Source of the DNA: a virus
Lineage: Duplodnaviria; Caudoviricetes
Reading direction: 5' to 3' (one strand)
Virus record (IMG/VR): IMGVR_UViG_3300044266_000273
Coordinates: 1 to 64,000 of that record
Length of the DNA stretch: 64,000 nt
Position numbers and translations under genes: made by a program. Of the stretch, positions 40,875 to 52,263 are shown piece by piece. The notes beneath the pieces are model-generated. The model was given only the letters and a program-made list of their open reading frames with translations, did not search any database and was not told the DNA's origin. How positions within the stretch are numbered: the first letter of the stretch is position 1; each line of letters opens with the position of its first letter.

Positions 40875-41069
40875 ATGAAAAAATACAATCAAAAGCCATC
40901 AATACGCAAGGTTCGTTCTAAGGCGAATCAGGACGTTTATTACACTTCACCTCAATGGGAAACCAAAGAGATTGAAGGCGTAGTATTCATGCCTGTCGTA
41001 AAAATGCCCACAATGGAAAAACAAAATATCCATTGGATGCGTAAAGATAGCATGGAATATATCAAGTAG
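40875..41069 (+). CDS. Small hypothetical protein
   Basis: ORF just downstream of promoter; stop overlaps tRNA start. Confidence 0.55.
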   Translation: MKKYNQKPSIRKVRSKANQDVYYTSPQWETKEIEGVVFMPVVKMPTMEKQNIHWMRKDSMEYIK

Positions 41070-41144
41070 CGCTTGTAGCTCAGTGGTTAGAGCAGAGGAC
41101 TCATAATCCTTTGGTCGTGGGTTCGAATCCCCCCGAGCGCACCA
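41069..41144 (+). tRNA. tRNA-CAT, Ile2 (lysidine)-like
   Basis: Cloverleaf with CCA; GACTCATAATC arm and C4-G69 resemble tRNA-Ile2. Confidence 0.8.
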
Positions 41145-41162
41145 TATAATTAAAGGAGTATC

Positions 41163-41612
41163 ATGTCTGTTACACTAAAGAATCTGGAGTCTGCATTGGC
41201 AGGTGAGTCTATGGCTCACATCAAGTACCGTTATTTTGCCAAGCTTGCTCGAGCTGAAGGTTACGAAGAAGTGGCCAAACACTTTGAACACACCGCAGAT
41301 CAAGAATTACATCATGCGTGGAGTCATCTTGAGTTGTTGATTGGTACGCCTTCAACCAAAGAATGCTTGGAAAAAGCTATTGCAGGTGAAACATACGAAT
41401 ACACTGAAATGTATCCTCAGTTCCTTGCAATTGCCGAGACAGAATGCAATCATCATGCAGCACGAATTGCAAAAGAGCAAATTATGGAAAGTGAAGAACA
41501 TGCTTTGCAGTTTATGGAAGTATTGAAGAAGGCCGAAAAACGTTTTGCTGCACTTGAGAAAGTTGAGAAGCGTCATGCGGAAGCCTATCAAAAAGTATTG
41601 GAGGGTCTATAA
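41163..41612 (+). CDS. Rubrerythrin (ferritin-like di-iron)
   Basis: NLESALAGES, YRYFA, EL.HA, GETYEYTEMYP, E.EHA. Confidence 0.88.
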   Translation: MSVTLKNLESALAGESMAHIKYRYFAKLARAEGYEEVAKHFEHTADQELHHAWSHLELLIGTPSTKECLEKAIAGETYEYTEMYPQFLAIAETECNHHAARIAKEQIMESEEHALQFMEVLKKAEKRFAALEKVEKRHAEAYQKVLEGL

Positions 41613-41767
41613 TGTCTGAACAAAAAGTTATACATGTTTGCCCTGTATGTGAATATGTGCATGAAGATAATTCCGTTGTAACTTGGGAAAATTTACCTGA
41701 TGACCATCCTTGTCCAGCTTGCAGTGTTGAAAAAATGTTCTTTGAAGAAAGAGTTGTGACTGTATAA
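41612..41767 (+). CDS. Rubredoxin (not in ORF track)
   Basis: Manual translation MSEQKVIHVCPVCEYVHE...WENLPDDHPCPACSVEKMFF; two CxxC motifs; TAATG coupling. Confidence 0.85.
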   Translation: MSEQKVIHVCPVCEYVHEDNSVVTWENLPDDHPCPACSVEKMFFEERVVTV

Positions 41768-41776
41768 TTTCACATT

Positions 41777-42205
41777 ATGAAACAGAAATTTCGTGATGTT
41801 TATATGAAAACGGCCGAGGTGTTCGCTGAACTATCCTCGGCTCGCAGACTTCATGTTGGTGCGATTGTTGTAAAAGATGACCGCATCATTTCTATTGGTT
41901 ACAATGGCATGCCATCTGGTTGGGACAATAACTGTGAGATTGAATTGAAACAACCAGTTAATCGTGTGAATTTGGTTACAAAACCAGAGGTGCTTCATGC
42001 TGAAACAAATGCAATCGCTAAGTTGGCAAAATCTACTGAATCTGGCAGCGGTGCTACTCTTTTTGTCACTCATGCTCCTTGTCTGGAATGCGCCAAGTTG
42101 GTTTATCAGTCTGGTATTAATTCTGTGTACTATAGGAATAGTTACCGTGATACGAATGGCCTGGATTTCCTACAAAAATGCAATGTTACAGTGGAAAAAA
42201 TTTGA
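41777..42205 (+). CDS. cd: dCMP deaminase
   Basis: VGAIVV, GYNG, HAETNAI, PCLEC. Confidence 0.92.
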   Translation: MKQKFRDVYMKTAEVFAELSSARRLHVGAIVVKDDRIISIGYNGMPSGWDNNCEIELKQPVNRVNLVTKPEVLHAETNAIAKLAKSTESGSGATLFVTHAPCLECAKLVYQSGINSVYYRNSYRDTNGLDFLQKCNVTVEKI

Positions 42206-42275
42206 AGAAGACATGTGGAGGATGTTGTAGACCTAAATACTGGCATTGAGTTTGCGAAAACTTACTGGAGAACCC

Positions 42276-42782
42276 ATGAAAGTTAAGGTAACTAATTGTC
42301 CAGATAAAGATTTTAAACCTTATGTGGAAAAGGCAGTTACATTTTTCGCCGAACAGTTGATAACAAATACCAGAATACGCAATAATTGCCACACTACAGT
42401 CCGATTTAATTCTGCACTGAAAGATTTTGGATCCGCAGTAGTCGCAGGAACAAACAGTAGAAAACAACCAAGAACTTTTATCATAGAAGTTCATCCTGGT
42501 ATACAAGTAAGAAATATATTGTCCACACTTGCACACGAAATGGTGCATATCAAACAATTTATATACGGTGAAACGAATGACCAACTTTCAGTATGGAAAG
42601 GTAAGAGAGTCAATTCGGAACAAATGGATTATTGGATACACCCTTGGGAAATAGATGCACATGGACGAGAAGTTGGATTGTCAACTAAGTTTGCAGTGGC
42701 CGAAAAATTATGGGATGTGTTTGATGGGTTCAAAAATCCAGATTTACCTATCGTATCTGTTCCTATAAAATGGAAAAAATAA
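42276..42782 (+). CDS. Zn metallopeptidase-like protein (HExxH)
   Basis: TLAHEMVHIKQ, Y..HPWEIDA. Confidence 0.7.
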   Translation: MKVKVTNCPDKDFKPYVEKAVTFFAEQLITNTRIRNNCHTTVRFNSALKDFGSAVVAGTNSRKQPRTFIIEVHPGIQVRNILSTLAHEMVHIKQFIYGETNDQLSVWKGKRVNSEQMDYWIHPWEIDAHGREVGLSTKFAVAEKLWDVFDGFKNPDLPIVSVPIKWKK

Positions 42783-43286
42783 ATGAGCCACGTGAATTGG
42801 GGACACAAAACATATGGCGCTGAGAAGATAGAGGTTTTTCAGTGGGGTGAAGGTGCAAAATGTCACATAGGAAAATATTGTTCTGTTGCTGATAAGGTTA
42901 AAATATTTTTAGGTGGTGACCACAAAGTAAATTGGGTCAGTACATTTCCACACAAACAACAAACAGGAACAAAAGGTGATATAATTATTGGCAACGATGT
43001 TTGGTTGAGTCATGGTGTGACGATTATGTCTGGTGTAACCATAGGTGATGGCGCAATCGTAGCAGCCAACTCACATGTAGTGAAAAACATAGAGCCATAT
43101 ACAATTTGTGGTGGCAATCCTGCAAAGTATATAAGACACAGATTTAGTGGTGATGTTATAGATTTGTTATTAAGATTAAAGTGGTGGGATCTGCATGACA
43201 ACCAGGTAAGTGAAATACATGATGTATTATGTGCCGAACCAAATTTAGAAGAATTGAAAAAAATAGTTGAGAAATACCAACGGTAA
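42783..43286 (+). CDS. Hexapeptide-repeat O-acetyltransferase (CatB/Vat-like)
   Basis: IGKYCS, IIIGNDVWL, GVTIGDGAIVAA, GGNPA, LKWWD. Confidence 0.88.
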   Translation: MSHVNWGHKTYGAEKIEVFQWGEGAKCHIGKYCSVADKVKIFLGGDHKVNWVSTFPHKQQTGTKGDIIIGNDVWLSHGVTIMSGVTIGDGAIVAANSHVVKNIEPYTICGGNPAKYIRHRFSGDVIDLLLRLKWWDLHDNQVSEIHDVLCAEPNLEELKKIVEKYQR

Positions 43287-43333
43287 TTAAAAAAGTTTAC
43301 TATATACCTTTATAACTTTTGATGGAGTTTTAA

Positions 43334-43438
43334 TTGTTACACATATCCAAACCCGTTACAACCTGTGAGTATCGCACACCATTTATTGGTAGCGATAATC
43401 AGTCATGGCTACACGGCAAAGGGGTATGTGAAACCTAG
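43334..43438 (+). CDS. Putative attenuator leader peptide (34 aa, 19 different amino acids)
   Basis: GGAG-6nt-TTG; MLHISKPVTTCEYRTPFIGSDNQSWLHGKGVCET*; not in ORF track. Confidence 0.7.
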   Translation: MLHISKPVTTCEYRTPFIGSDNQSWLHGKGVCET

Positions 43439-43496
43439 TAAAACCTAAAAAGTAAAAAAATTTCACAAGCCCCACCCTAAAAAAGTGGGGTTTTTT
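43421..43496 (+). terminator. Antiterminator/terminator switch upstream of tRNA array
   Basis: Terminator GCCCCAC/GTGGGGT + T-run; alternative pairing 43421-43433 with 43461-43473. Confidence 0.75.
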
Positions 43497-43582
43497 GTTG
43501 CTTTTTTGCAACACACGTATTGACAAAGTTCTAGAACTGTGTATAATTCGTGATTCGTTCTTAAAAAATTTAAAGTAGTTTG
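43496..43582 (+). promoter_or_regulatory. tRNA-array promoter module 1 (palindrome, sigma70 promoter, boxA-like leader)
   Basis: TGTTGC-N6-GCAACA; TTGACA-16-TATAAT; 29-nt leader identical to 44251-44279. Confidence 0.75.
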
Positions 43583-43583
43583 T

Positions 43584-43660
43584 AGCCGCTTCGCCAAGTC
43601 CGGTAAGGCACTTGATTTTGATTCAAGCATTCGGTGGTTCGAATCCATCAGCGGCTGCCA
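43584..43660 (+). tRNA. tRNA-Gln(TTG)
   Basis: Cloverleaf, CTTGA-TTTTGAT-TCAAG, CCA. Confidence 0.9.
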
Positions 43661-43754
43661 TATTGAAGCACATTATAGTGACGCATGAGCAGGTCATTAA
43701 CTTCCGCTGGTTACGCCAATCGTAAGTGAGTGAAGATAGTGTGTTTCAATATGG
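43658..43754 (+). ncRNA. Conserved-stem cassette 1
   Basis: CCATATTGAAGCACATT...AGTGTGTTTCAATATGG enclosing 63 nt. Confidence 0.6.
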
Positions 43755-43760
43755 TTTATT

Positions 43761-43851
43761 GGAAACGTGGCAGAGTCCGGTTTATTGCAACAGTCTTGAA
43801 AACTGTCGAGCGCATCATGCTCCGTGAGTTCGAATCTCACCGTTTCCGCCA
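43761..43851 (+). tRNA. tRNA-Ser(TGA)
   Basis: Class II cloverleaf, G73, CCA. Confidence 0.9.
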
Positions 43852-43857
43852 ATTTTC

Positions 43858-43947
43858 CGAGAACGGGCAGGACGGTAATGCAGCGGATTGCTAATCCGTA
43901 GATTCATGAAAATGGATCACAGGGTTCGACTCCCTGGTTCTCGGCCA
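43858..43947 (+). tRNA. tRNA-Ser(GCT)
   Basis: Class II cloverleaf, G73, CCA; lacks U8. Confidence 0.82.
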
Positions 43948-44015
43948 AGTTGTGTTGCAACTGATTTGAGGAACTCCCGTACACCTCAAAAAGAATGACA
44001 AAAAAACGGGGCCAT

Positions 44016-44107
44016 GCCAGCGAGACTTGGTAGTCAGAGAGGTCTTATAAGCCTTTTAGCGCCAGATTAGCGTTCTTGAGAGTGTTCGATTCACTCCGCT
44101 GGTACCA
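44016..44107 (+). tRNA. Non-canonical tRNA, anticodon TAT, long variable arm
   Basis: GCCAGCG/CGCTGGT acceptor, CTTATAA loop, GAGTG-TTCGATT-CACTC, ACCA. Confidence 0.7.
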
Positions 44108-44112
44108 ATTAT

Positions 44113-44188
44113 GTGCGTGTGATCCGAATGGTTAGGAAGCGGATTGCAAATCCGTATTATGCAGGTTCGACTCCTGTCACGCACTCCA
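44113..44188 (+). tRNA. tRNA-Cys(GCA)
   Basis: Cloverleaf, U73, CCA. Confidence 0.9.
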
Positions 44189-44193
44189 ATAAA

Positions 44194-44279
44194 TGTTGTA
44201 TTTGTACAACAGCTGGTTGACAAACCTTCCAGTTCATGTACAATACATCTTTCGTTCTTAAAAAATTTAAAGTAGTTTG
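44194..44279 (+). promoter_or_regulatory. tRNA-array promoter module 2
   Basis: TGTTGT-N6-ACAACA; TTGACA-16-TACAAT; same 29-nt leader as module 1. Confidence 0.75.
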
Positions 44280-44354
44280 CTCGGTTCGTCTATCGGTTTA
44301 GGACGCTAGCCTTTCACGCTGGAAAGACGGGTTCGACTCCCGTACCGAGTACCA
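44279..44354 (+). tRNA. tRNA-Glu(TTC)
   Basis: Cloverleaf, CTTTCAC loop, CCA. Confidence 0.9.
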
Positions 44355-44475
44355 TTTGTTTTGCTGATTGTAAGCCATGGGCTTGATCATGCCTGAGTAA
44401 CTATGTATATAATTGCGGTAATTCTAGACAATCCCGCATGAGCATAGCAAATAGTGCAGTCAGCAAAACAAATGG
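44352..44475 (+). ncRNA. Structured RNA closed by a long terminal stem
   Basis: CCATTTGTTTTGCTGATTG pairs with CAGTCAGCAAAACAAATGG; internal stems. Confidence 0.6.
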
Positions 44476-44481
44476 TAATAG

Positions 44482-44557
44482 GCGGGTATAACTCAGTTGG
44501 TAGAGTAACTGGCTTTTAACCAGTAAGTCCTCGGTTCGAGCCCGAGTGCCCGTACCA
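44482..44557 (+). tRNA. tRNA-Lys(TTT)
   Basis: Cloverleaf, CCA. Confidence 0.92.
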
Positions 44558-44564
44558 AGTTTTT

Positions 44565-44657
44565 GGGTGTCTTGATGCTAAGGCGTGTGCATCACCAGAC
44601 TGTAAATCTGGTCCCTCGTGGTAAACATTCGCGGTTCGACTCCGTGGACACCCACCA
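44565..44657 (+). tRNA. tRNA-Tyr(GTA)
   Basis: CCAGA-CTGTAAA-TCTGG, long variable region, extended D-stem. Confidence 0.82.
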
Positions 44658-44666
44658 AATTATAAT

Positions 44667-44743
44667 GCCCTGGTGACGGAATTGGTATACGTGTTGGTCT
44701 TAGAAGCCAAATTTTGAGAGTTCGAGTCTCTCCTAGGGCACCA
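44667..44743 (+). tRNA. tRNA-Leu(TAG), short variable arm
   Basis: 77 nt, Leu-type D-arm, CTTAGAA loop. Confidence 0.85.
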
Positions 44744-44819
44744 TATTGAAGCACATTCTTTGAGGTCTTGGTCGTTACCGGCGTATGCAAAAACGGCGAC
44801 AGAGTGTGTTTCAATATGG
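44741..44819 (+). ncRNA. Conserved-stem cassette 2
   Basis: Same 17-nt arms enclosing 45 nt. Confidence 0.6.
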
Positions 44820-44891
44820 TGAGAGTAAGGGTGGTATGTAGGTGTTCTCTCAACACTGAGGACTGGGATTCCCTGGCCAGCAACACTGGCG

Positions 44892-44971
44892 CCATATTGA
44901 AGCACATTATCAATGTAGGTTCGATTCCTCGCCATTGATCCGGTTGCTGGTGTTAGTGTGTTTCAATATGG
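44892..44971 (+). ncRNA. Conserved-stem cassette 3
   Basis: Same 17-nt arms enclosing 46 nt with a T-loop-like AGGTTCGATTCCT. Confidence 0.6.
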
Positions 44972-45044
44972 TCTCAAAGTGTTCATGGACGCACGTATGC
45001 CTGTCACGCATAAAGAAGGGGATCGTTACCCCTTGGGACCGCCA
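44970..45044 (+). tRNA. tRNA-Asp(GTC)
   Basis: TATGC-CTGTCAC-GCATA, G73; T-loop ATCGTTA. Confidence 0.85.
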
Positions 45045-45060
45045 TAAATATTTTTTCTAT

Positions 45061-45135
45061 TCCCCAATAGCTCAGTGGTAGAGCAAAGCACTGTTAATGC
45101 TTGGGTCCGAGGTTCGAAACCTTGTTGGGGAGCCA
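45061..45135 (+). tRNA. tRNA-Asn(GTT)
   Basis: Cloverleaf, CCA. Confidence 0.92.
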
Positions 45136-45141
45136 AATAAA

Positions 45142-45218
45142 CGGAGTGTAGCACAGCCTGGTAGTGCGCTTGCTTTGGGAGCAAGAGGTCCAAGGTTCGA
45201 ATCCTTGTACTCCGACCA
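45142..45218 (+). tRNA. tRNA-Pro(TGG)
   Basis: Cloverleaf, C1-G72, CCA. Confidence 0.93.
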
Positions 45219-45267
45219 ATCTCGCCTTGACTGACGGCGTACAGAAGGATAAATTGTCAGTTTATAT

Positions 45268-45342
45268 GGGCTGCTAGTGATAATGGGAGCACGCCGGCTT
45301 TGCACGTCGGAGGTTGGAGTTCGATCCTCCAGCGGTCCACCA
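45268..45342 (+). tRNA. tRNA-Ala(TGC)
   Basis: G3-U70, TTTGCAC loop. Confidence 0.9.
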
Positions 45343-45346
45343 TTAC

Positions 45347-45421
45347 GGTTCAATGACGTAGACGGATGCGTACCGGTTTCATAAGCCGAGGAGATTGGAT
45401 CGTTACCAATTTGAACCACCA
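45347..45421 (+). tRNA. tRNA-Met(CAT), elongator-like
   Basis: TTCATAA loop; T-loop ATCGTTA; CCA. Confidence 0.78.
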
Positions 45422-45426
45422 AATTT

Positions 45427-45501
45427 CGGTCTTTGGTGAAACGAATATCACGTAGGGCTACGGACCCTAAGTTAGGGGTTTGATTCCTCTAGGACCGGCC
45501 A
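45427..45501 (+). tRNA. tRNA-Arg(ACG)
   Basis: TAGGG-CTACGGA-CCCTA, CCA. Confidence 0.85.
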
Positions 45502-45503
45502 AA

Positions 45504-45577
45504 ACCCGCGTAGCTCAATGGTAGAGCAAAGTGCTGATAACGCTGAGACACAAGTTCGATTCTTGTCGTGGGTACCA
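45504..45577 (+). tRNA. tRNA-Ile(GAT)
   Basis: CTGATAA loop, CCA. Confidence 0.88.
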
Positions 45578-45582
45578 GTAAT

Positions 45583-45656
45583 TCCGGGGTAGTATAATGG
45601 CAGTGCGGCGGTCTCCAAAACCGTTAGTGGGGGTTCGATTCCCTCTCCCGGAGCCA
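45583..45656 (+). tRNA. tRNA-Trp(CCA)
   Basis: GCGGT-CTCCAAA-ACCGT, G73. Confidence 0.9.
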
Positions 45657-45679
45657 ATATATAATAACAAGAGGTTAAT

Positions 45680-46162
45680 ATGAAAAAATTAGATATTGCT
45701 GAAGTTAAAAAATTCATTCAGGCACAAAGCCCTGATACTAAGATTTATCTTGGTGCTGATTCCGAACGTTTTAGAATGGACGGAAAATGGTATGCAGACT
45801 ACACTTTGGCAGTTGTTGTTCATATTAACGGCCGCCACGGGTGTAAGATTTTTGGTGAAGTTCAACGTGAGTTGGATTATGACCAAAAGAAAAGTAAGCC
45901 TGCATTACGTTTGATGAATGAAGTATATAAAGTTGCTGACTTGTTCAATCAACTTATTGATGTAATTGAAGATAGACACGTAGAAGTTCATTTAGATATT
46001 AATCCTGATGAACACTTCGGTTCTTCATGCGTTATTCAACAAGCGATTGGTTATATTCGTGGCACATGTAACGTGGTGCCAATGGTTAAACCAAAAGCGT
46101 TTGCTGCGTCATATGCTGCTGACAGATTAAAACATGTCATGGCTATGTCTAAAGCTGCTTAA
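45680..46162 (+). CDS. RNase H-like protein, YkuK/DUF458 family
   Basis: KIYLGADS, AVVVH..G..G, RLMNEV, VEVHLDIN, AASYAAD. Confidence 0.78.
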   Translation: MKKLDIAEVKKFIQAQSPDTKIYLGADSERFRMDGKWYADYTLAVVVHINGRHGCKIFGEVQRELDYDQKKSKPALRLMNEVYKVADLFNQLIDVIEDRHVEVHLDINPDEHFGSSCVIQQAIGYIRGTCNVVPMVKPKAFAASYAADRLKHVMAMSKAA

Positions 46163-46165
46163 TAT

Positions 46166-46240
46166 GGTGTCTATGGTGTAGTGGAAGCATTACTCTCTGT
46201 GAAAGAGTAGGTACGAGGTCGGTACTCGTTAGACACCCCA
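46166..46240 (+). tRNA. tRNA-His(GTG)
   Basis: G-1:C73, CTGTGAA loop; atypical T-loop GTCGGTA. Confidence 0.85.
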
Positions 46241-46256
46241 ACAAAAGGAATAGATT

Positions 46257-46496
46257 ATGATCCCACTTAATAATAATGTAATTGTTAAACGTTCAGAAAA
46301 AAAGTTAACAACTGAATCTGGAATTATATTGCAACGAAATGATGATGCAGATTTTGCGGATGTTATTTCTGTTGGGCCAGATGTCGTTGATGTGACTGTC
46401 GGTGAAAAAGTGTTGTTGGATTGGAACAAAGCAATAAAAATTGACAAAGAAAATTTTAAAATTTCTGTTGACAACATTATTGCAGTTGCAGTATAA
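46257..46496 (+). CDS. groES: GroES/Cpn10-like co-chaperonin
   Basis: PLNNNVIVKR..TTESGIIL..VISVGP..V.VGEKVL. Confidence 0.85.
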   Translation: MIPLNNNVIVKRSEKKLTTESGIILQRNDDADFADVISVGPDVVDVTVGEKVLLDWNKAIKIDKENFKISVDNIIAVAV

Positions 46497-46506
46497 TTAA
46501 CTCATC

Positions 46507-46580
46507 GCCTCCTTAGTTTAATGGTAGAACTCCGTCTTTACACGGCGGTTACGGCAGTTCGATTCTGTCAGGAGGCACCA
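46507..46580 (+). tRNA. tRNA-Val(TAC)
   Basis: Cloverleaf, CCA; TTGACA-18-TATAAT at 46468-46497 upstream. Confidence 0.9.
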
Positions 46581-46583
46581 ACG

Positions 46584-46657
46584 GCTCTCATAGTATAAAG
46601 GTATTACACATCCTTGGTAAGGCTGAGACACAGGATCGTTACCTGTTGAGAGCACCA
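46584..46657 (+). tRNA. tRNA-Thr(GGT)
   Basis: TTGGTAA loop; T-loop ATCGTTA. Confidence 0.82.
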
Positions 46658-46661
46658 ATAT

Positions 46662-46737
46662 GCCGCTATGGTGAAGGTGGTCCTCACGCTGGTCTGAAGT
46701 ACCAGAGAACTCTGATCGTAACAGAGTGGCGGCACCA
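46662..46737 (+). tRNA. tRNA-Phe(GAA)
   Basis: CTGGT-CTGAAGT-ACCAG; T-loop ATCGTAA. Confidence 0.82.
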
Positions 46738-46739
46738 TA

Positions 46740-46814
46740 CTGGCGTTAGTTCAATGGACAGAACAGTAGCCTTCTAAGCTATTAATAGAGGTTCGATTCC
46801 TCTACGCCGGACCA
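46740..46814 (+). tRNA. tRNA-Arg(TCT)
   Basis: CTTCTAA loop, CCA. Confidence 0.9.
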
Positions 46815-46818
46815 ATTA

Positions 46819-46908
46819 GCCCGAATGGTGAAATAGGTAGACACAAGAGACTTAAAATCTCTCGCTTCCGAAAGGGGCGTGCCGGTTCGATTCCGGCTTC
46901 GGGCACCA
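46819..46908 (+). tRNA. tRNA-Leu(TAA)
   Basis: Class II cloverleaf, CCA. Confidence 0.92.
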
Positions 46909-46926
46909 AGTTTACCAAAATTGTAC

Positions 46927-46955
46927 TTGACTTATTAAAAAATACACTATATAAT
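46927..46955 (+). promoter_or_regulatory. Sigma70-type promoter inside tRNA array
   Basis: TTGACT-17-TATAAT just upstream of tRNA-Gly. Confidence 0.7.
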
Positions 46956-46964
46956 AATGACATT

Positions 46965-47037
46965 GCGGGTGTTCTCCTGGGAGAGGACTTAGCCTTCCAA
47001 GCTAAAGAAGCCGGTTCGAATCCGACCACCCGCTCCA
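46965..47037 (+). tRNA. tRNA-Gly(TCC)
   Basis: CTTCCAA loop, U73. Confidence 0.87.
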
Positions 47038-47045
47038 AAATTTAA

Positions 47046-47119
47046 GCCCTTTTAGTATAATGGCATTACGTCGGTTTTGTAATCCGAATACGGGAGTTCG
47101 ATTCTCTCAAGGGGCACCA
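47046..47119 (+). tRNA. tRNA-Thr(TGT)
   Basis: TTTGTAA loop, CCA. Confidence 0.88.
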
Positions 47120-47124
47120 AGATT

Positions 47125-47198
47125 GCGGGATTAGTTTATTGGTAAAACGAAACCTTGCCAAGGTTTAGTGATCAGTTCGATTCTGATATCCCGCTCCA
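47125..47198 (+). tRNA. tRNA-Gly(GCC)
   Basis: TTGCCAA loop, U73. Confidence 0.9.
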
Positions 47199-47199
47199 G

Positions 47200-47395
47200 A
47201 ACGTGCCGTCTAATCAACGGCTAGTGTGACCCACATGACAGGAAGTGGCGTGATAACCACGGGTGGTAGTCTTTAAACCGAAAGGCCGCTGGCAATGCGT
47301 AAACGGCCCTTGTCGAGGAGCGGGTGGAAGGTATAGTGAGGGGCTAAAAGCCTGATGCATATACTACAATTACCGCCGAGGGGCGTCAGAGCATT
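47200..47395 (+). ncRNA. ~195-nt structured RNA, manA-motif-like
   Basis: GC-rich, multi-hairpin, bounded by tRNAs; size and context match the manA motif as recalled, not searched. Confidence 0.5.
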
Positions 47396-47401
47396 TTATT
47401 T

Positions 47402-47476
47402 CGCGGGATGGGAAAGTAGAAATCCGCTTGGCTCATAACCAAGAGATCGGTGGTGCGAATCCACCTCCCGCAACCA
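47402..47476 (+). tRNA. tRNA-fMet(CAT), initiator-like
   Basis: CGCGGG start, C1:A72 mismatch, CTCATAA loop. Confidence 0.85.
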
Positions 47477-47478
47477 AA

Positions 47479-47754
47479 CTACTTTAAATTTTCTTCTCTA
47501 CAGGACCTCTCACGGTATACTTTACCTTCGGGCGTCTGTATTTCTTTCCACTCGGTGCACACAATTTGTTTTTCCACCACGATTGGTTGTTGCGATTTGA
47601 CTATTTCATAGACAACTACACCACTAACGATTGATGGAATAACCCAACCCATACCTGGTTTCCAAACCCAATGTGGATGTGGTTGTTGATGTCTATATTG
47701 TGCCGATGCACTCAGTGAAACAACTGCAAGTAAAAGAACTACGAACTTTTTCAT
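47479..47754 (-). CDS. Small secreted protein
   Basis: Sec signal MKKFVVLLLAVVSLSASA; second hydrophobic segment; Cys pair. Confidence 0.6.
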   Translation of the reverse strand: MKKFVVLLLAVVSLSASAQYRHQQPHPHWVWKPGMGWVIPSIVSGVVVYEIVKSQQPIVVEKQIVCTEWKEIQTPEGKVYRERSCREENLK

Positions 47755-47763
47755 GTTATCTCC

Positions 47764-49767
47764 TTATTTGCTTGTTGCTCTGTACACACCATCCCATGTA
47801 GATGGTTTACCTTCTCTCAGGCGTTCAAGCATAGCTTCATAATATTTGTGCAATTCTGACCCGTCTTGTATTGCTTTTTCGGCAATTTCTATTGCCTTGT
47901 CCCAATCGCCGTTGTAATATGCATCTAAGAATTGTTCTTGTGTGATGGCTTGGCCTAATGTATAAATCTTCACGCCTTCCTTCTTTCCTTTAACTGCAAT
48001 ACAATCCAATTCAACAACAGGATATTCATCTTTAACCTGTTCTGCGGTGAGTGTTCCTAAAACAATTTTGACACCGTATGGTTTACTTTGGCCTTCTAGG
48101 CGTGATGCGAGGTTAACATGATCGCCAAGACATGTATAATCAAAACGCTGAGAAGAACCCATATTGCCAACAACGACAACACCTGTATTAATACCAAGTC
48201 CCATTCCGAAAGCTGGAACTCCTTCTGCAGCAATTTCTTTATTGAACGCATCTAAACTATCCATCATTTGTATTGCTGTTTTTACGGCCATCTTTGCATG
48301 GTTGGGTTCATCTAACGGTGCGTTCCAGAATGCCATCTGAGCATCGCCAATATATTTATCTAAAGTTCCGTTATTTTCAATAATTTTTGCGGTCATTGCT
48401 GTCATGTAACGATTCATAATTTTGGTGAGCCCCTGAACATCCTTACCATAGTGTTCGGAGATTGTTGTGAAACCACGAACATCGGTAAACATAATCGACA
48501 ATTCACGTGATTCGCCACCAAGAACCAACAGTTCCGGATTCTTCTGTAATTTTTCTACCAGTGCTGGGCTTAGATATGTTCCAAATTGTTTTTTGATTTG
48601 GAGCTTTTGGCGCAACTCGACAAGGAACTTGACAACATATCCATGGACGCTAACCAACCCAATGGCGAGTATCGGAAATACAGCATCAAGTAGATAACCT
48701 GATCGTAAAAATAATTCAATCCCTGCATAGTAGGTAGCGACTGCCAAGGAGATTGTGAAGATGTAGCCATGTGTGAACCTTGTAATAAAGAACAGAGATA
48801 ATACAGATATAAGAGCAATGAATAAAAGTTCACTTACAGTTGCCCAATCCGGTCTACTGATATTTGTACCTGATGTAACTGTATCTAACACACTGGCTTG
48901 CAGATGGTGTGGAAACACTTCTCCTTTGGCAGTTGCAACTGGATTGTTAAGACCCTTGCCTGTGATGCCAACGATTACGATCTTGCCACCAAAATCAGCA
49001 GGTAATTCGGACAGAGAATATTCTTTTGCTTTTGATGACCAATCAATCCAAATTCTACCAACATTGTCTGTTGTTATCTTACCAAATTTAGGTATACGTA
49101 ACGCTTCAATTGACCCGTCGTTTACCTTGACCTGAAAACTTGGATCGCCTGCAGCAACACGAAGTGTTTCCATTGACATACTTGGATATAACAAGTCATT
49201 TGTACGAACGACCATCGGTATACGGCGAGTAACACCATCAATCTCCGGCAATACGTTGACTACACCAATACCAGCAGCAGAGTCATTTAGAACTTTGATG
49301 TTTGGTTGTATTGTACCGTAGTTGATACCAACATCACCTTCACCAATGATGGAAACACCTGGCCTAAATGGTTCGTAATTTCTTGTTGATTTATCAGATG
49401 TAGCTACGTGAGGTAGAACAACTGGATATTTTTTTATTGCAGCAGATAACGCAGCATCGCCACCAAACCTATCAGGCTCAGGCATATAGACGTTAAACAC
49501 AACCAACCCAGCACCACGAGCGTAGATATCAGCAATAATGGCGGCATATTCCCGACGGGGGAATGGGAACTGTCCTTTTTGTCGAATAGTTTCGTCATCT
49601 ATGTTTACCACGGCGACTTGTTGGGACTCCGTGCTCTCTTTTGAAGTGATGAGTTGGTCAAAATATCTAAGCCTGACCGACTCAACGAAAGACGGATCTT
49701 GCACTCTAATAAACAAGACAAGTAGTAGAGTAAGCAAGGCCATCCAAGGAGATAATAATTTTTTCAT
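47764..49767 (-). CDS. CHASE2-domain class III adenylate cyclase
   Basis: N-terminal TM, CHASE2 (VNIDD..GQFPFPR, DGVTRR), 3 TMs, FTDVRGFT, DKYIGDA, YTCLGDHVNLASRLEG. Confidence 0.92.
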   Translation of the reverse strand: MKKLLSPWMALLTLLLVLFIRVQDPSFVESVRLRYFDQLITSKESTESQQVAVVNIDDETIRQKGQFPFPRREYAAIIADIYARGAGLVVFNVYMPEPDRFGGDAALSAAIKKYPVVLPHVATSDKSTRNYEPFRPGVSIIGEGDVGINYGTIQPNIKVLNDSAAGIGVVNVLPEIDGVTRRIPMVVRTNDLLYPSMSMETLRVAAGDPSFQVKVNDGSIEALRIPKFGKITTDNVGRIWIDWSSKAKEYSLSELPADFGGKIVIVGITGKGLNNPVATAKGEVFPHHLQASVLDTVTSGTNISRPDWATVSELLFIALISVLSLFFITRFTHGYIFTISLAVATYYAGIELFLRSGYLLDAVFPILAIGLVSVHGYVVKFLVELRQKLQIKKQFGTYLSPALVEKLQKNPELLVLGGESRELSIMFTDVRGFTTISEHYGKDVQGLTKIMNRYMTAMTAKIIENNGTLDKYIGDAQMAFWNAPLDEPNHAKMAVKTAIQMMDSLDAFNKEIAAEGVPAFGMGLGINTGVVVVGNMGSSQRFDYTCLGDHVNLASRLEGQSKPYGVKIVLGTLTAEQVKDEYPVVELDCIAVKGKKEGVKIYTLGQAITQEQFLDAYYNGDWDKAIEIAEKAIQDGSELHKYYEAMLERLREGKPSTWDGVYRATSK

Positions 49768-50795
49768 CGTGATATTTGTTTTATAATAATTTTGTTAGTT
49801 GTAGAATCTTGATTCTTAATGTACAATGTGGTACTATCCTGAATCAACGTAATATCATATCCTCTATCTTTATTTATGAGTATGGTCGCTAAGTCTTTGA
49901 CGCGGCGTTCTATGTACCAATAGGTATTACGGTCAAGTATGTAGAGTTGTGTAGTTGGATTGTAACCTACAGGAAACGAACTGATATCAAATATGTTTTC
50001 CAATGCGTTTGTCAAATTATTCGTATCAAGGTCGTTGATATTCAATTCATTGAACTTGAGTTCATCTTTGAATACTTGTTCGTTTAGTGGATTATAATCT
50101 AATGCGTTAAAAGAAAGTGGATTATTATCTCTTGTGTTTTCTTCTTGCAGTGCCTTGACAATTTCTTTTGGTGGTTTGACTATCAACATATTGTCAATCA
50201 TAGACTCCGTTAGATTCAAAATTGCAGGCGCAAGAGGCTTTGCTTCAGCTAGGCCAGCATATGTGGCTTGAAATGCTTTGTTTAAAGTCACAGACCCCAT
50301 TGCCGTGCGGACTTCAATCTCCCCGACGGTGCCATCTTGATTTGGAAGAAGAATAATTGTCGATGCACCTACTTCATCCACTGTCATAGAGAAAGCAGTA
50401 CCTCGCACCGCAACTGTTGCTGTCGGCGTCTTCACATCAACATTCTTGTTATTCTCTTTGGCTATATTACCTGAAGCATATCGTACTGTGCCGAGTGCAA
50501 CTTTCATTGCAAGTTTGCCAGTACCTTTTGATTTAGGATCATATACGAAATCATCAATCACCAATTTTGAATGTTGTGTGACACGTACTTTTGTGTCGTC
50601 CTCAAACGTAATTCCAACTATACCGTTGGCCGTTTGAACGCTATCCATAGACTCGACGCCAGCATTCATCTTGGCGTCGAGTTTCAACTTATTACGAACT
50701 ATCTCACTACTTCCCTTTTCTTCAGTTACTTTACCAATAGATGCAAAACAATTAATGCTGAGTGATAGTAGTAGTAGTGCTATTACCCGTAACAT
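49764..50795 (-). CDS. Periplasmic FecR-domain protein
   Basis: Signal peptide; ITFEDDT.V...S.L.ID; VKTPTATVAVRGTAF. Confidence 0.85.
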   Translation of the reverse strand: MLRVIALLLLSLSINCFASIGKVTEEKGSSEIVRNKLKLDAKMNAGVESMDSVQTANGIVGITFEDDTKVRVTQHSKLVIDDFVYDPKSKGTGKLAMKVALGTVRYASGNIAKENNKNVDVKTPTATVAVRGTAFSMTVDEVGASTIILLPNQDGTVGEIEVRTAMGSVTLNKAFQATYAGLAEAKPLAPAILNLTESMIDNMLIVKPPKEIVKALQEENTRDNNPLSFNALDYNPLNEQVFKDELKFNELNINDLDTNNLTNALENIFDISSFPVGYNPTTQLYILDRNTYWYIERRVKDLATILINKDRGYDITLIQDSTTLYIKNQDSTTNKIIIKQISR

Positions 50796-51465
50796 TCAGA
50801 TTGATGATGTTAGGAGTTGTAGTTCCGTTTTGTGTAATTGAAACGGTGTTATTATTACCAATGATTGTGCTTGTAATTTTGTGTCCAGGTGTATTTGCTG
50901 TACCATCAGCACCATTCTGAACAGTGGTGTAACTATTATAGTTGCCTGTCAATGTAATATTGTTCACAATGTACTTGCTGTTCATTGTGCTGGTCACTGT
51001 ATTGTGATTGCCACCAATAGTCAGATTGTAGAGGTAGTTTGATGTATCAGCAGTCGATGCCATCGTAAACGACACGGTGTTGTTGTCACCAGTCTTGGTC
51101 ACAGTCATACTTCCAGCGTTGGTGCCAAAGTTACCTTGTGTCAAACTAAATGAGTTCGTTGAACCAGTTTGCGTGATGCTCGCCGTTGAATCACCACCAA
51201 TAAAATTACCAACAATAGAGTTGTTCATACCGTCTTGGACGATAGTCAACGCCATGTTGTTGCCGTCAATCAAGAATGCTGGTTGTAGAATAGCACTTCG
51301 ATCACCGACAGCATTACCTGATCCGGTCTGTGTAATTGTTACAGTTGAATTATCAGCATTAGTTTGATCAATATACACAGAGTTGTTACCAGAGTTTGTT
51401 GCTAAAACACTTGTAACAAATAACAAAGACATAATAAACGCAAAAATGCGATTTGTCTTTTTCAT
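50752..51465 (-). CDS. Curlin-repeat (CsgA/CsgB-like) secreted protein
   Basis: Signal peptide; repeated ITQTGS.N / IVQDG.NN / G..N.V.I.Q units, N/T/G-rich. Confidence 0.7.
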   Translation of the reverse strand: MKKTNRIFAFIMSLLFVTSVLATNSGNNSVYIDQTNADNSTVTITQTGSGNAVGDRSAILQPAFLIDGNNMALTIVQDGMNNSIVGNFIGGDSTASITQTGSTNSFSLTQGNFGTNAGSMTVTKTGDNNTVSFTMASTADTSNYLYNLTIGGNHNTVTSTMNSKYIVNNITLTGNYNSYTTVQNGADGTANTPGHKITSTIIGNNNTVSITQNGTTTPNIINLNVTGNSTTTTITQH

Positions 51466-51474
51466 AGTCCTTCC

Positions 51475-52263
51475 TTATTCAGGTCTTTTAAAAGGTTGTT
51501 TAAATTTCCAGAGGCCTTTTTCCTCACCTTGATATACCATTTCTTCGACAGCTAAATCAACAGCTGCCTTTACAGCATATATAGTCGGTTCGGTACTTGT
51601 ACTTCCTATTTCATTTTCAAATGAACGTGTTCCTTGATTGAAAAATTTAAATGTGGCCACAGAAGTTGCAACACTCAATAACGTTTTTTGTGTATTCACA
51701 GTTAAAATAACTTCTCCTGTTTGCACATTCACCGCTCTCAAGGATACAGTCACTATATCTTCTTGGTATTGTGTCATTGGCCCAATACCCAAATAACGCC
51801 ATCCAAAACCACCAGTTCTTTTATTCGTATCGTAAGATACAATAGAACCTTCAATAATCATTCCTGCATATAAAATAGGTCTTAATATATTTACATCTTT
51901 TGCCTCTTCACGTGCGGACCTAATTAATTGTCTTTCTTTGAGCAAGTTATCTAAACCAACTCGCTCAACAATACGAAACCATTTACCATCTCCAACATCT
52001 GCTAACGCCTTGAGTAATAATGATTCTGCACCTTGTGTGACTGCGGATGATAATTTGGCAACGCCACCACCATCTTTTCTTTGACCAGTCTTGTCGGTGA
52101 AGTTATAAACCGCAACTACAATAGGCTGTGATGTTTCGGGCTCAGGAAAGGGGCGCTTGAATTTTGTCGGCTCAACTTTCTCTGCATCCTGAGTGTCCCA
52201 TACCATAGGCAACTCAGCACATCCAGCAAATAATACCAACAATAAAAGTATAATTTTTTTCAT
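51475..52263 (-). CDS. csgG: Curli secretion pore CsgG-like lipoprotein
   Basis: Lipobox LFAGC; VAVYNFTDKTGQ, SSAVTQGA, VERVGLDNLLKERQLIR, EGSIVSYDTN. Confidence 0.92.
   Translation of the reverse strand: MKKIILLLLVLFAGCAELPMVWDTQDAEKVEPTKFKRPFPEPETSQPIVVAVYNFTDKTGQRKDGGGVAKLSSAVTQGAESLLLKALADVGDGKWFRIVERVGLDNLLKERQLIRSAREEAKDVNILRPILYAGMIIEGSIVSYDTNKRTGGFGWRYLGIGPMTQYQEDIVTVSLRAVNVQTGEVILTVNTQKTLLSVATSVATFKFFNQGTRSFENEIGSTSTEPTIYAVKAAVDLAVEEMVYQGEEKGLWKFKQPFKRPE

What the first reader, a model, noticed from the sequence alone, without database searches (positions are those of the whole stretch)
43658..44971. Three identical 17-bp stem cassettes carrying different small RNA cargoes between tRNAs
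Seen: CCATATTGAAGCACATT ... AGTGTGTTTCAATATGG occurs exactly three times (43658-754, 44741-819, 44892-971). The arms form a 17-bp helix with two G-U pairs around unrelated inserts of 63, 45 and 46 nt. Each 5' arm begins with the CCA end of the preceding tRNA or tRNA-like element; in cassette 3 the 3' arm overlaps the first GG of tRNA-Asp. The inserts are structured (TTACG/CGTAA hairpin in 1; ATCAATG/CATTGAT helix with an AGG-TTCGATT-CCT T-loop in 3). Inference: a constant processing or protein-binding handle (RNase III-type stem) with variable cargo, such as decoys for tRNA-targeting enzymes, antitoxin-like RNAs or guides. tRNA maturation may be coupled to cassette cleavage.
Basis: partly seen in the sequence, partly recalled or inferred. 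Interest (0 to 1): 0.8.

Follow-up and report, generated by a model that had tools for sequence, protein, structure and literature searches.

The report
Stem-clamped small RNAs among phage tRNAs
Three (really four) small structured RNA genes sit between the tRNA genes of an uncultured freshwater T4-like phage, each closed by a roughly two-turn helix anchored on the CCA end of the RNA before it. They belong to a large, uncatalogued phage RNA family whose job is unknown.

Summary
The three cassettes lie inside sigma-70-driven tRNA operons of a T4-like freshwater phage. A fourth cassette (44352-44475) has the same build but different arms.

The stem is an RNA helix on the tRNA strand:
- Its orientation matches the tRNAs 207:0.
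- 98.7% of positions are paired.
- There are 332 G-U pairs against 27 A-C.
- 13 of 17 pairs show compensatory changes.

The same arms enclose about 139 unrelated inserts in 119 viral contigs from at least three phage lineages.

Across phages the inserts are the conserved part (cargo 2 is nearly invariant, and the cargo 1 and cargo 4 families are conserved). The arms drift by compensatory change or are swapped, and stay about 19-22 bp long. So the stem is a structural processing stalk and clamp, not a sequence-specific handle.

Best model: RNase III-type plus tRNA-processing enzymes release stalk-closed small RNAs. I could not test cleavage, and cargo function is unknown.

There is no Rfam match, no cultured-phage match and no paper. 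The closest known things are the T4 and T5 stable RNAs and RNase III stalks. This scan has already met the same family in other genomes.

The parts
43520..43547 (+). Sigma-70-type promoter (12 of 12 consensus positions) of the first tRNA/cassette transcription unit. A terminator-like hairpin lies just upstream at 43474-43491.
43584..43660 (+). tRNA-Gln(UUG). Its CCA (43658-43660) forms the first three bases of the cassette 1 stem.
43658..43754 (+). Cassette 1. 5' arm 43658-43674, cargo 1 43675-43737 (63 nt, three-way junction), 3' arm 43738-43754. tRNA-Ser(UGA) starts 6 nt later.
   Evidence: Cargo orthologs at 95% identity or more, with compensated variant arms, in L249 and L250; a short-stem form in L035.
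44217..44244 (+). Second sigma-70-type promoter (11 of 12). It is followed by the same ~30-nt leader repeat as the first promoter.
44352..44475 (+). 18-nt arms of a different sequence (44352-44369 and 44458-44475) start on the CCA of tRNA-Glu(UUC). They enclose the 88-nt cargo 4 (44370-44457). tRNA-Lys starts 6 nt later.
   Evidence: The cargo family is found in 94 viral contigs. In a 58-sequence alignment, 20 of 33 pairs have compensatory changes.
44667..44743 (+). tRNA-Leu(UAG). Its CCA starts cassette 2.
44741..44819 (+). Cassette 2. Arms 44741-44757 and 44803-44819; cargo 2 44758-44802 (45 nt).
   Evidence: The cargo is found in 44 viral contigs and is nearly invariant, while the arms vary with compensation.
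44820..44894 (+). Conserved ~75-nt RNA element that is not a tRNA and ends in CCA. In every ortholog aligned it sits between two cassettes.
   Evidence: Not called by ARAGORN or Rfam. 13 orthologous loci with invariant blocks and covarying stems.
44892..44971 (+). Cassette 3. Arms 44892-44908 and 44955-44971; cargo 3 44909-44954 (46 nt, contains a T-loop-like hairpin). The last GG is the first GG of tRNA-Asp (44970-45044).
   Evidence: No ortholog of this cargo was found. The same slot after the 44820-44894 element holds at least 6 other cargoes in other phages.
45680..46162 (+). 160-aa PF04308 (DUF458, RNase H-like fold) protein inside the tRNA array. It is the commonest protein neighbour of the cassettes and a candidate RNA-processing factor, but it is not specific to them.
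   Evidence: Present in 17 of 50 cassette-bearing records and absent from 3 of 4 complete ones. Also sits in cultured-phage tRNA arrays that lack such stems.

Best explanation
The cassettes are genes for small structured RNAs (the inserts) carried inside phage tRNA operons.

Build. Each insert is looped out by a long, AU-rich, nearly perfect terminal helix of about two turns. The helix begins on the CCA of the upstream tRNA or CCA-ended RNA. It ends at, or a few bases before, position +1 of the next tRNA.

Proposed role of the helix (inferred):
- It acts as a processing stalk and clamp. It makes each insert fold on its own amid many look-alike tRNAs.
- It offers a double-stranded substrate for an RNase III-type cut. 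That cut separates the insert from its neighbours.
- Exonuclease trimming back to CCA finishes the upstream tRNA.
- RNase P finishes the downstream tRNA.
- The part of the helix left on the insert caps the released RNA against exonucleases.

Sequence of the helix. It is free to drift by compensatory change, and it can be swapped between cassettes. The 17-nt arms seen here are the commonest variant, not a specific protein code.

The inserts are the selected, functional part. Their targets are unknown. About one cargo family in nine carries a tRNA T-arm motif, so some may mimic tRNA.

Shown: RNA-level helix, operon context, insert conservation, arm turnover. Inferred: the enzymes, the release of a stable RNA, and any function of the inserts.
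For: Operon context. Four near-consensus + strand promoters are present, and no terminator lies at the cassettes.

RNA helix on the tRNA strand:
- Orientation agrees with neighbouring tRNAs 207:0.
- 3608 of 3655 arm positions are paired.
- G-U 332 against A-C 27.
- Compensatory double changes at 13 of 17 pairs.

Anchoring. 117 of 265 cassettes start exactly on a tRNA CCA. For 39 of 262 the next tRNA starts inside the 3' arm, and for 33 more it starts within 10 nt.

Length. The uninterrupted helix has a median of 19 bp (IQR 18-20), and 22 bp in the cargo-4 family. Arms are 34% GC against 49% in the inserts. The RNase III dimer accommodates about 22 bp of dsRNA (PMC6212723).

Inserts are the selected part:
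- Cargo 2 is nearly invariant in 6 aligned phages (44 of 45 nt), and all 11 covarying pairs lie in the arms.
- Insert-seeded scans give 29 arm pairs in 33 cargo-2 cassettes and 44 arm pairs in 64 cargo-4 cassettes. Pairing is kept in both.
- Cargo 4 has 20 of 33 pairs with compensatory change.
- Cargo 1 is 95% identical or more in two other phages with altered arms.

Swapping:
- Cargo 4 carries the common arms in only 4 of 64 cassettes.
- The slot after the 44820-44894 element holds at least 6 different cargoes.

Precedent. In E. coli, RNase P, and less well RNase E, cut off hairpins 2-7 nt after a tRNA CCA (PMC4176162). T5 RNAIII and RNAIV, which are stable RNAs of its tRNA region, also fold with terminal stems.
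Against: - There are no RNA-end data. The only RNA runs available were assembled contigs, and they covered tRNAs rather than cassettes.
- The host and its RNases are unknown.
- A structural clamp alone does not explain why identical 34 nt of arm recur on about 139 unrelated inserts in three phage lineages. It also does not explain why the U-G wobble next to the insert is kept in 85% of copies.
- The CCA is buried in the helix. An RNase III cut would therefore leave a 3' tail that is partly base-paired and must still be trimmed.
- Cargo 3 has no known ortholog, so its function is not supported by conservation.
- The first survey was seeded on the exact arm, which inflates how constant the arms appear.
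Confidence: 0.55

Rival explanations
1. Sequence-specific handle. The common 17-bp stem is the docking or cutting site of one dedicated protein, from the phage or the host. That protein reads its sequence and so loads or releases all cargoes.
For: - The same arms sit on about 139 unrelated cargo clusters.
- They occur in T4-like phages, in jumbo phages with a distant polymerase, and in a 98-kb phage type.
- Positions 3-5 and 10 are nearly invariant, and the U16-G wobble is kept in 182 of 215 copies.
- The upper stem is the best-kept part in the cargo-2 family.
- A PF04308 nuclease-fold gene sits inside many arrays.
Against: - Orthologous cargoes work with arms that differ at up to 30 of 34 positions.
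- The window's own fourth cassette uses other arms.
- Other CCA-anchored stems with unrelated sequences exist.
- No protein is shared by all carriers. PF04308 is absent from 3 of 4 complete genomes and present in arrays without stems.
- No RNase III, Ro60 or RtcB gene was found in 5 records.
Confidence: 0.2
2. Cis-acting tRNA maturation device. The stem exists only to mask or present the CCA end and the next tRNA's leader, which orders or protects tRNA processing. The inserts are passive loops.
For: - The stem is anchored exactly on CCA, and GG is shared with the next tRNA.
- The base of the stem reads like an RNase E site after CCA and like a good RNase P leader before +1 (sequence inspection, my inference).
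- Cassettes follow some tRNAs preferentially: Glu-UUC 34 of 74, Lys-UUU 21 of 55, Leu-UAG 15 of 55, and none after Met, Asp, Ser, Pro or Ala.
Against: - Inserts are more conserved than the arms and have their own covarying helices.
- More than half of the cassettes do not start on a recognised tRNA.
- The same cargo follows different tRNAs in different phages: cargo 1 follows Gln, Val or none.
Confidence: 0.1
3. DNA-level element. The inverted repeats are ends of a miniature mobile element, or are recombination sites, and the RNA fold is incidental.
For: - Cargoes and arms are exchanged between cassettes and between phage lineages.
- HNH homing endonuclease genes are common in these arrays.
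Against: - The wobble pattern is strand-specific: G-U 332 against A-C 27. Orientation is always that of the tRNAs.
- No insert is repeated within a genome.
- There are no target-site duplications.
- No transposase or reverse transcriptase was found.
- The inserts have covarying RNA structure.
Confidence: 0.07
4. A known RNA class in disguise: a self-cleaving ribozyme placed 3' of a tRNA (HDV-like theta ribozymes), a Y RNA for Ro60, or a retron RNA.
For: - Theta ribozymes also sit directly 3' of phage tRNAs (PMC10879173).
- Y RNAs have a long terminal stem and a tRNA-like module.
- Some cargoes carry T-arm motifs.
Against: - There is no Rfam match even at E up to 10.
- The inserts are unrelated to each other, so no single catalytic core exists.
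- The tRNAs here encode CCA, whereas only 4.5% of theta-linked tRNAs do (PMC10879173).
- No TROVE gene and no reverse transcriptase gene was found.
Confidence: 0.03

Closest known systems
Stable small RNAs of phage tRNA regions: T4 species 1 and 2 (rnaC, rnaD), and T5 RNAIII, RNAIV, RNAI, RNA1, RNA2
   Same: They are encoded on the tRNA strand inside the tRNA cluster, next to tRNAs, and their function is unknown (annotation). T5 RNAIII and RNAIV fold with 12-bp and roughly 9-bp terminal stems, and T4 rnaC carries a T-arm. These match the stalk-closed and partly tRNA-like cargoes here.
   Different: There is no sequence similarity. The stems here are longer (about 19-22 bp) and start on the preceding CCA. 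One stem sequence is shared by many unrelated RNAs and across phage lineages.
RNase III processing stalks: leader-trailer helices around 16S and 23S rRNA, T7 R sites, and 23S rRNA intervening sequences
   Same: A helix of about two turns loops out an RNA inside a polycistronic precursor. The helix evolves by compensatory change while its content is conserved. Intervening sequences are excised by RNase III and are horizontally acquired (PMC4990558). RNase III accommodates about 22 bp (PMC6212723).
   Different: Cleavage is not shown here. The content is small RNAs of 25-130 nt rather than rRNA or mRNA. The stalk abuts tRNA ends. Excised intervening sequences are degraded, whereas the conservation of these inserts implies that they are kept and used.
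tRNA-spacer-derived regulatory RNAs of bacteria (the 3' external transcribed spacer of leuZ; recalled from my own knowledge) and removal of hairpins after CCA by RNase P and RNase E (PMC4176162)
   Same: Functional or removable RNA segments lie between or after tRNAs and are released by the tRNA-processing machinery.
   Different: Those spacers are single cases and have no shared long closing helix. Here there is a modular family with hundreds of cargoes.
Theta (HDV-like) ribozymes next to phage tRNAs (PMC10879173)
   Same: A cis RNA element immediately 3' of phage tRNA genes, proposed to make the tRNA 3' end. It is abundant in uncultured phages.
   Different: Theta ribozymes share one catalytic fold and follow tRNAs that mostly lack CCA, in gut phages. 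The cassettes here have no common core, start on an encoded CCA, and come from freshwater phages.

Membership tests
RNase III-type processing stalk | Near-perfect double-stranded helix of about two turns (about 20-22 bp) | tested here: met
   Window stems are 18-19 bp in the folds. The family median is 19 bp and the cargo-4 family median is 22 bp.
RNase III-type processing stalk | The helix encloses an RNA inside a longer precursor and is maintained by compensatory change | tested here: met
   Promoters lie upstream and no terminator lies at the cassettes. Compensatory changes occur at 13 of 17 arm pairs, and 20 of 33 pairs in the cargo-4 alignment.
RNase III-type processing stalk | Staggered cleavage by RNase III with 2-nt 3' overhangs | not testable with these tools
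   Only assembled RNA contigs were available, and they show no ends.
Phage tRNA-region stable RNAs (T4 rnaC/rnaD, T5 RNAIII/IV) | Encoded in the tRNA cluster on the tRNA strand, with a terminal stem | tested here: met
Phage tRNA-region stable RNAs (T4 rnaC/rnaD, T5 RNAIII/IV) | Sequence homology to the T4 or T5 RNAs | tested here: not met
   No match in 50,697 phage records, even in distant mode at E up to 10.
Phage tRNA-region stable RNAs (T4 rnaC/rnaD, T5 RNAIII/IV) | Accumulates as a discrete stable RNA in infection | not testable with these tools
   The phage is uncultured, and no raw RNA reads were available.
tRNA | Cloverleaf recognised by ARAGORN or Rfam RF00005 | tested here: not met
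   No call for any cassette or for 44820-44894. Only a T-arm motif is present, in cargo 3 and in 16 of 139 cargo clusters.
HDV-like theta ribozyme | Shared nested double-pseudoknot core, with the cleavage site abutting a tRNA that usually lacks CCA | tested here: not met
   No Rfam ribozyme match. The inserts are mutually unrelated. CCA is encoded.
Y RNA / YrlA with Ro60 | Match to the Y RNA models, and a TROVE (Ro60) gene in the genome | tested here: not met
   No Rfam match. No TROVE gene in 5 records, 4 of them complete. A host Ro60 cannot be excluded.
Retron non-coding RNA | Reverse transcriptase gene next to the inverted-repeat-flanked RNA | tested here: not met
   No RVT_1 match above cut-off in 5 records.
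Miniature inverted-repeat mobile element | Same interior repeated in a genome, target-site duplication, no strand preference | tested here: not met
   The interiors all differ. The strand always matches the tRNAs, and there is a G-U against A-C bias.
Intrinsic terminator | GC-rich hairpin followed by a U run | tested here: not met
   No terminator-like site at the cassettes. The 3' arm is followed by U and then an A-rich stretch.

The most novel reading that the evidence does not exclude
Phage tRNA operons act as an exchangeable library of small functional RNAs. A common two-turn stalk anchored on CCA works both as the universal release-and-protection module and as the junction at which cargoes and arms are swapped between cassettes and between unrelated phages. 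This would be an RNA-gene counterpart of a cassette array. The hundreds of cargo families, some of them tRNA-like, would be effectors aimed at host factors such as tRNA-targeting defence enzymes or RNA-processing proteins.
Probability: 0.25. Interest if true: 0.85.

Novelty: new variant of a known kind. Interest (0 to 1): 0.62.

Why it matters
The stable small RNAs in the tRNA regions of T4 and T5 have been unexplained since the 1970s. This family shows that such RNAs are neither rare nor idiosyncratic. In freshwater T4-like, jumbo and other phages they form a modular class with more than a hundred distinct, strongly conserved cargoes. Cargo 2 was found in 44 contigs and cargo 4 in 94.

That gives three things:
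- Well-defined RNAs, with alignments and covariation, in which to look for function.
- A simple and testable processing model.
- A natural example of a scaffold that expresses arbitrary small RNAs from tRNA operons, which could be of use for RNA expression design.

If the cargoes prove to be decoys for host defence or RNA-processing factors, they would be a new layer of phage counter-defence.

Tried and rejected
- RNA evidence. One call laid four metatranscriptome runs on 43500-45100. All were assembled contigs that matched tRNAs of many organisms at 90-99%. One 78-nt low-depth piece ran from tRNA-Glu into cassette 4. No ends, levels or processing can be read from this.
- Rfam at E up to 1 over 41000-48000, and at E up to 10 over 44340-44985, gave only chance microRNA-like hairpin matches.
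- Cultured phages gave no match to the cassettes.
- Bacterial and archaeal genomes. Only 3 short contigs binned into metagenome-assembled genomes held full cassettes. These are probably phage DNA, so they give no host clue.
- Papers. A search for the arm sequence and five keyword searches found no description.
- PF04308 as the dedicated nuclease was rejected as a specific partner.
- Phage-encoded RNase III, Ro60, RtcB and reverse transcriptase are absent from 5 records.
- Antisense targets of the four cargoes in the 95.9-kb record: none of 12 nt or more; the longest was one 11-nt match for cargo 4.
- k-mer search for a motif shared by the cargoes found only the T-loop motif.
- Exact-word scan for cargo 3 orthologs found none.
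- Comparison with the RNase III base-pair preferences of PMC6212723 could not be made, because the preference table is in a figure that is not held.
- Protein structure and complex prediction were not used, because no candidate partner justified them.
Full report
**Observation.** The two 17-nt arms occur exactly three times each, at the stated coordinates. Chance expectation is 0.44 matches, and none of 100 shuffles reached the observed count. Inserts are 63, 45 and 46 nt. Each unit folds into an 18-19 bp closing helix around a branched insert, with z-scores near -6.
- The 5' arms begin on the CCA of tRNA-Gln and tRNA-Leu-UAG, and on the CCA of a 75-nt element at 44820-44894.
- The last GG of cassette 3 is the first GG of tRNA-Asp.
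- A fourth unit with the same build but different 18-nt arms follows tRNA-Glu at 44352-44475.

**Context.** The window is part of a 95.9-kb uncultured virus record estimated to be 57% complete.
- It encodes a T4-type clamp loader, RegA, tail sheath, portal and terminase. Its DNA polymerase is about 50% identical to those of cyanomyoviruses.
- The nearest DNA holders are freshwater metagenomes.
- The cassettes lie in a 27-tRNA array, all on the + strand. The array is driven by four near-consensus sigma-70-type promoters. A terminator lies before the first promoter and none at the cassettes.

- These loci hold 267 cassettes, 215 of them unique, with inserts mostly 25-130 nt.
- The inserts fall into about 139 unrelated clusters. 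The only enriched word is the tRNA T-loop motif, found in 16 clusters against 1.8 expected.
- The common arms occur in a 150-kb T4-like genome, in two 340-400-kb genomes with only 30-35% polymerase identity, and in a complete 98-kb genome with no such polymerase.
- Cultured phages and Rfam have nothing similar.
- Only three short contigs binned into bacterial metagenome-assembled genomes carry cassettes.

**The stem is an RNA helix.**
- Its orientation equals that of neighbouring tRNAs in 207 cases and differs in none.
- Of 3655 arm positions, 3276 are Watson-Crick pairs, 332 are G-U and 47 are mismatched. Only 27 are A-C, which is what G-U would become on the other strand.
- 13 of 17 pairs show double compensatory changes. 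The U-G pair next to the insert is kept in 182 of 215 copies.
- 117 of 265 cassettes start exactly on a tRNA CCA. For 39 of 262 the next tRNA starts within the 3' arm, and for 33 more within 10 nt.
- The uninterrupted helix has a median of 19 bp (IQR 18-20). Arms are 34% GC against 49% in the inserts.

**Sampling by insert reverses the picture.** The first survey was seeded on the arm, so it could not show how much the arms vary. I therefore ran scans seeded on the inserts.
- Cargo 2 was found in 44 contigs, giving 33 unique cassettes with 29 different arm pairs. Only the window's copy has the exact common arms, yet 30 of 33 keep 15-17 of 17 pairs. In a six-phage alignment the 45-nt cargo is invariant at 44 positions, and all 11 covarying pairs lie in the arms.
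- Cargo 4 was found in 94 contigs, giving 64 unique cassettes with 44 arm pairs. The commonest pair is the window's own variant, and the common arms appear in only 4 cassettes. In a 58-sequence alignment, 20 of 33 pairs covary and the closing helix is about 21 bp.
- Cargo 1 is 95% identical or more in two other phages. There its arms are altered but compensated, and it follows tRNA-Gln in one and tRNA-Val in the other. A third phage has a short-stem form.
- Cargo 3 has no ortholog that I could find.
- The slot after the conserved 44820-44894 element holds at least six different cargoes in different phages.

So the inserts are the selected RNAs. The helix is required as a structure. Both arms and cargoes are exchanged between cassettes.

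**What it is not.**
- Not a tRNA.
- Not a known ribozyme or Y RNA.
- Not a retron.
- Not a terminator.
- Not a miniature mobile element, because the interiors are unique and the helix is strand-specific.
- The commonest neighbouring protein is a PF04308 RNase H-fold protein at 45680-46162. It occurs in 17 of 50 cassette-bearing records but is missing from three of four complete genomes. It also sits in the tRNA arrays of cultured phages that have no such stems. It may act on phage tRNA transcripts in general, but it is not the cassette's partner.
- The five records tested encode no RNase III, Ro60 or RtcB.

**Mechanism (inferred).** A two-turn, AU-rich, near-perfect helix that loops out a conserved RNA inside a polycistronic precursor, and that evolves by compensation, is the signature of an RNase III processing stalk. 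Known examples are the stalks around 16S and 23S rRNA, the T7 sites, and the 23S intervening sequences (PMC4990558). RNase III accommodates about 22 bp (PMC6212723).

Proposed sequence of events:
1. The host enzyme cuts the stalk.
2. The upstream tRNA is trimmed back to CCA.
3. RNase P makes the 5' end of the downstream tRNA. In E. coli, RNase P and RNase E already remove hairpins 2-7 nt after a CCA (PMC4176162).
4. The insert is left with a residual stem that shields its ends.

None of these cuts is shown. The RNA runs I could lay were contigs and carried no information on ends. The recurrence of one arm sequence on unrelated cargoes and the conserved U-G wobble are not explained by a purely structural role. 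That keeps a sequence-reading factor alive as a rival, at about 0.2.

**Comparison and novelty.** The nearest known things are the stable RNAs of the T4 and T5 tRNA regions. They have been known for decades and are still without function. T5 RNAIII and RNAIV fold with terminal stems, and T4 rnaC has a T-arm. The cassettes share the kind but not the sequence. They add three features: a long CCA-anchored stalk, one stalk sequence shared by many RNAs, and cargo exchange. I found no paper describing them.

This scan has met the same family in other genomes. Earlier follow-up notes reached similar readings: constant-stem cassettes, an RNase III-like stalk, and swapped cargoes. I read those notes after my own survey. 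I took two leads from them, the T5 RNAs and the intervening sequences, and checked both here.

- The insert-seeded evidence that the handle is the variable part across orthologs.
- The arm-swap evidence.
- The bias in which tRNAs precede a cassette.
- The negative tests for candidate partner proteins.

Noticed in passing
window 44352-44475: The 88-nt cargo 4 RNA is a three-way junction with invariant single-stranded blocks. It occurs in 94 viral contigs with rich covariation and matches no Rfam family. It is the best-supported new RNA family in the window.
   Followed up: yes
window 44820-44894: A conserved ~75-nt RNA that ends in CCA and is not a tRNA. It has invariant blocks, a covarying stem, and a terminal minihelix followed by NCCA. 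In all 13 orthologs it sits between two cassettes.
   Followed up: partly
window 45680-46162: A PF04308 (DUF458, RNase H-like fold) gene embedded in the tRNA array. Homologs sit in or near the tRNA arrays of the two cultured phages examined, Stenotrophomonas phage DLP_6 and Synechococcus phage BUCT-ZZ01. Further homologs occur in Xanthomonas, Vibrio and roseobacter phages, whose arrays were not examined. This suggests a general role in phage tRNA or RNA processing.
   Followed up: partly
window 44016-44107: A 92-nt tRNA with anticodon UAU and a long variable arm, a body type normally seen in Leu, Ser and Tyr tRNAs. Rfam scores it only as a weak tRNA-Sec-like hit. The same odd tRNA is annotated in phage DLP_6 and is present in locus L250.
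   Followed up: no
window 45347-45418: Rfam calls a tRNA here (40.6 bits) that ARAGORN missed.
   Followed up: no
window 47764-52263 (- strand): An unusual phage-borne gene set: a CHASE2-sensor adenylate/guanylate cyclase (667 aa), a FecR-domain protein, a protein with a weak (below-threshold) curlin-repeat match, and a CsgG-like secretion channel.
   Followed up: no
window 43553-43583 and 44250-44278: Both strong promoters are followed by the same ~30-nt AU-rich leader before the first tRNA of the unit. It may be a shared 5' processing or regulatory element.
   Followed up: no
119 viral loci (L001-L119) and the window: Cassettes follow some tRNAs far more often than others: Glu-UUC 34 of 74, Lys-UUU 21 of 55, Leu-UAG 15 of 55, and none after Met (109), Asp (71), Ser, Pro or Ala. 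This could be shared synteny, or a link with the tRNAs that anticodon nucleases attack.
   Followed up: partly
L006, L113, L114 (viral contigs): A short cargo family with conserved GCCGAAC...GAUGAG flanks around a covarying hairpin. It resembles a kink-turn or a hammerhead-core fragment, and it occurs in both a jumbo and T4-like phages.
   Followed up: no
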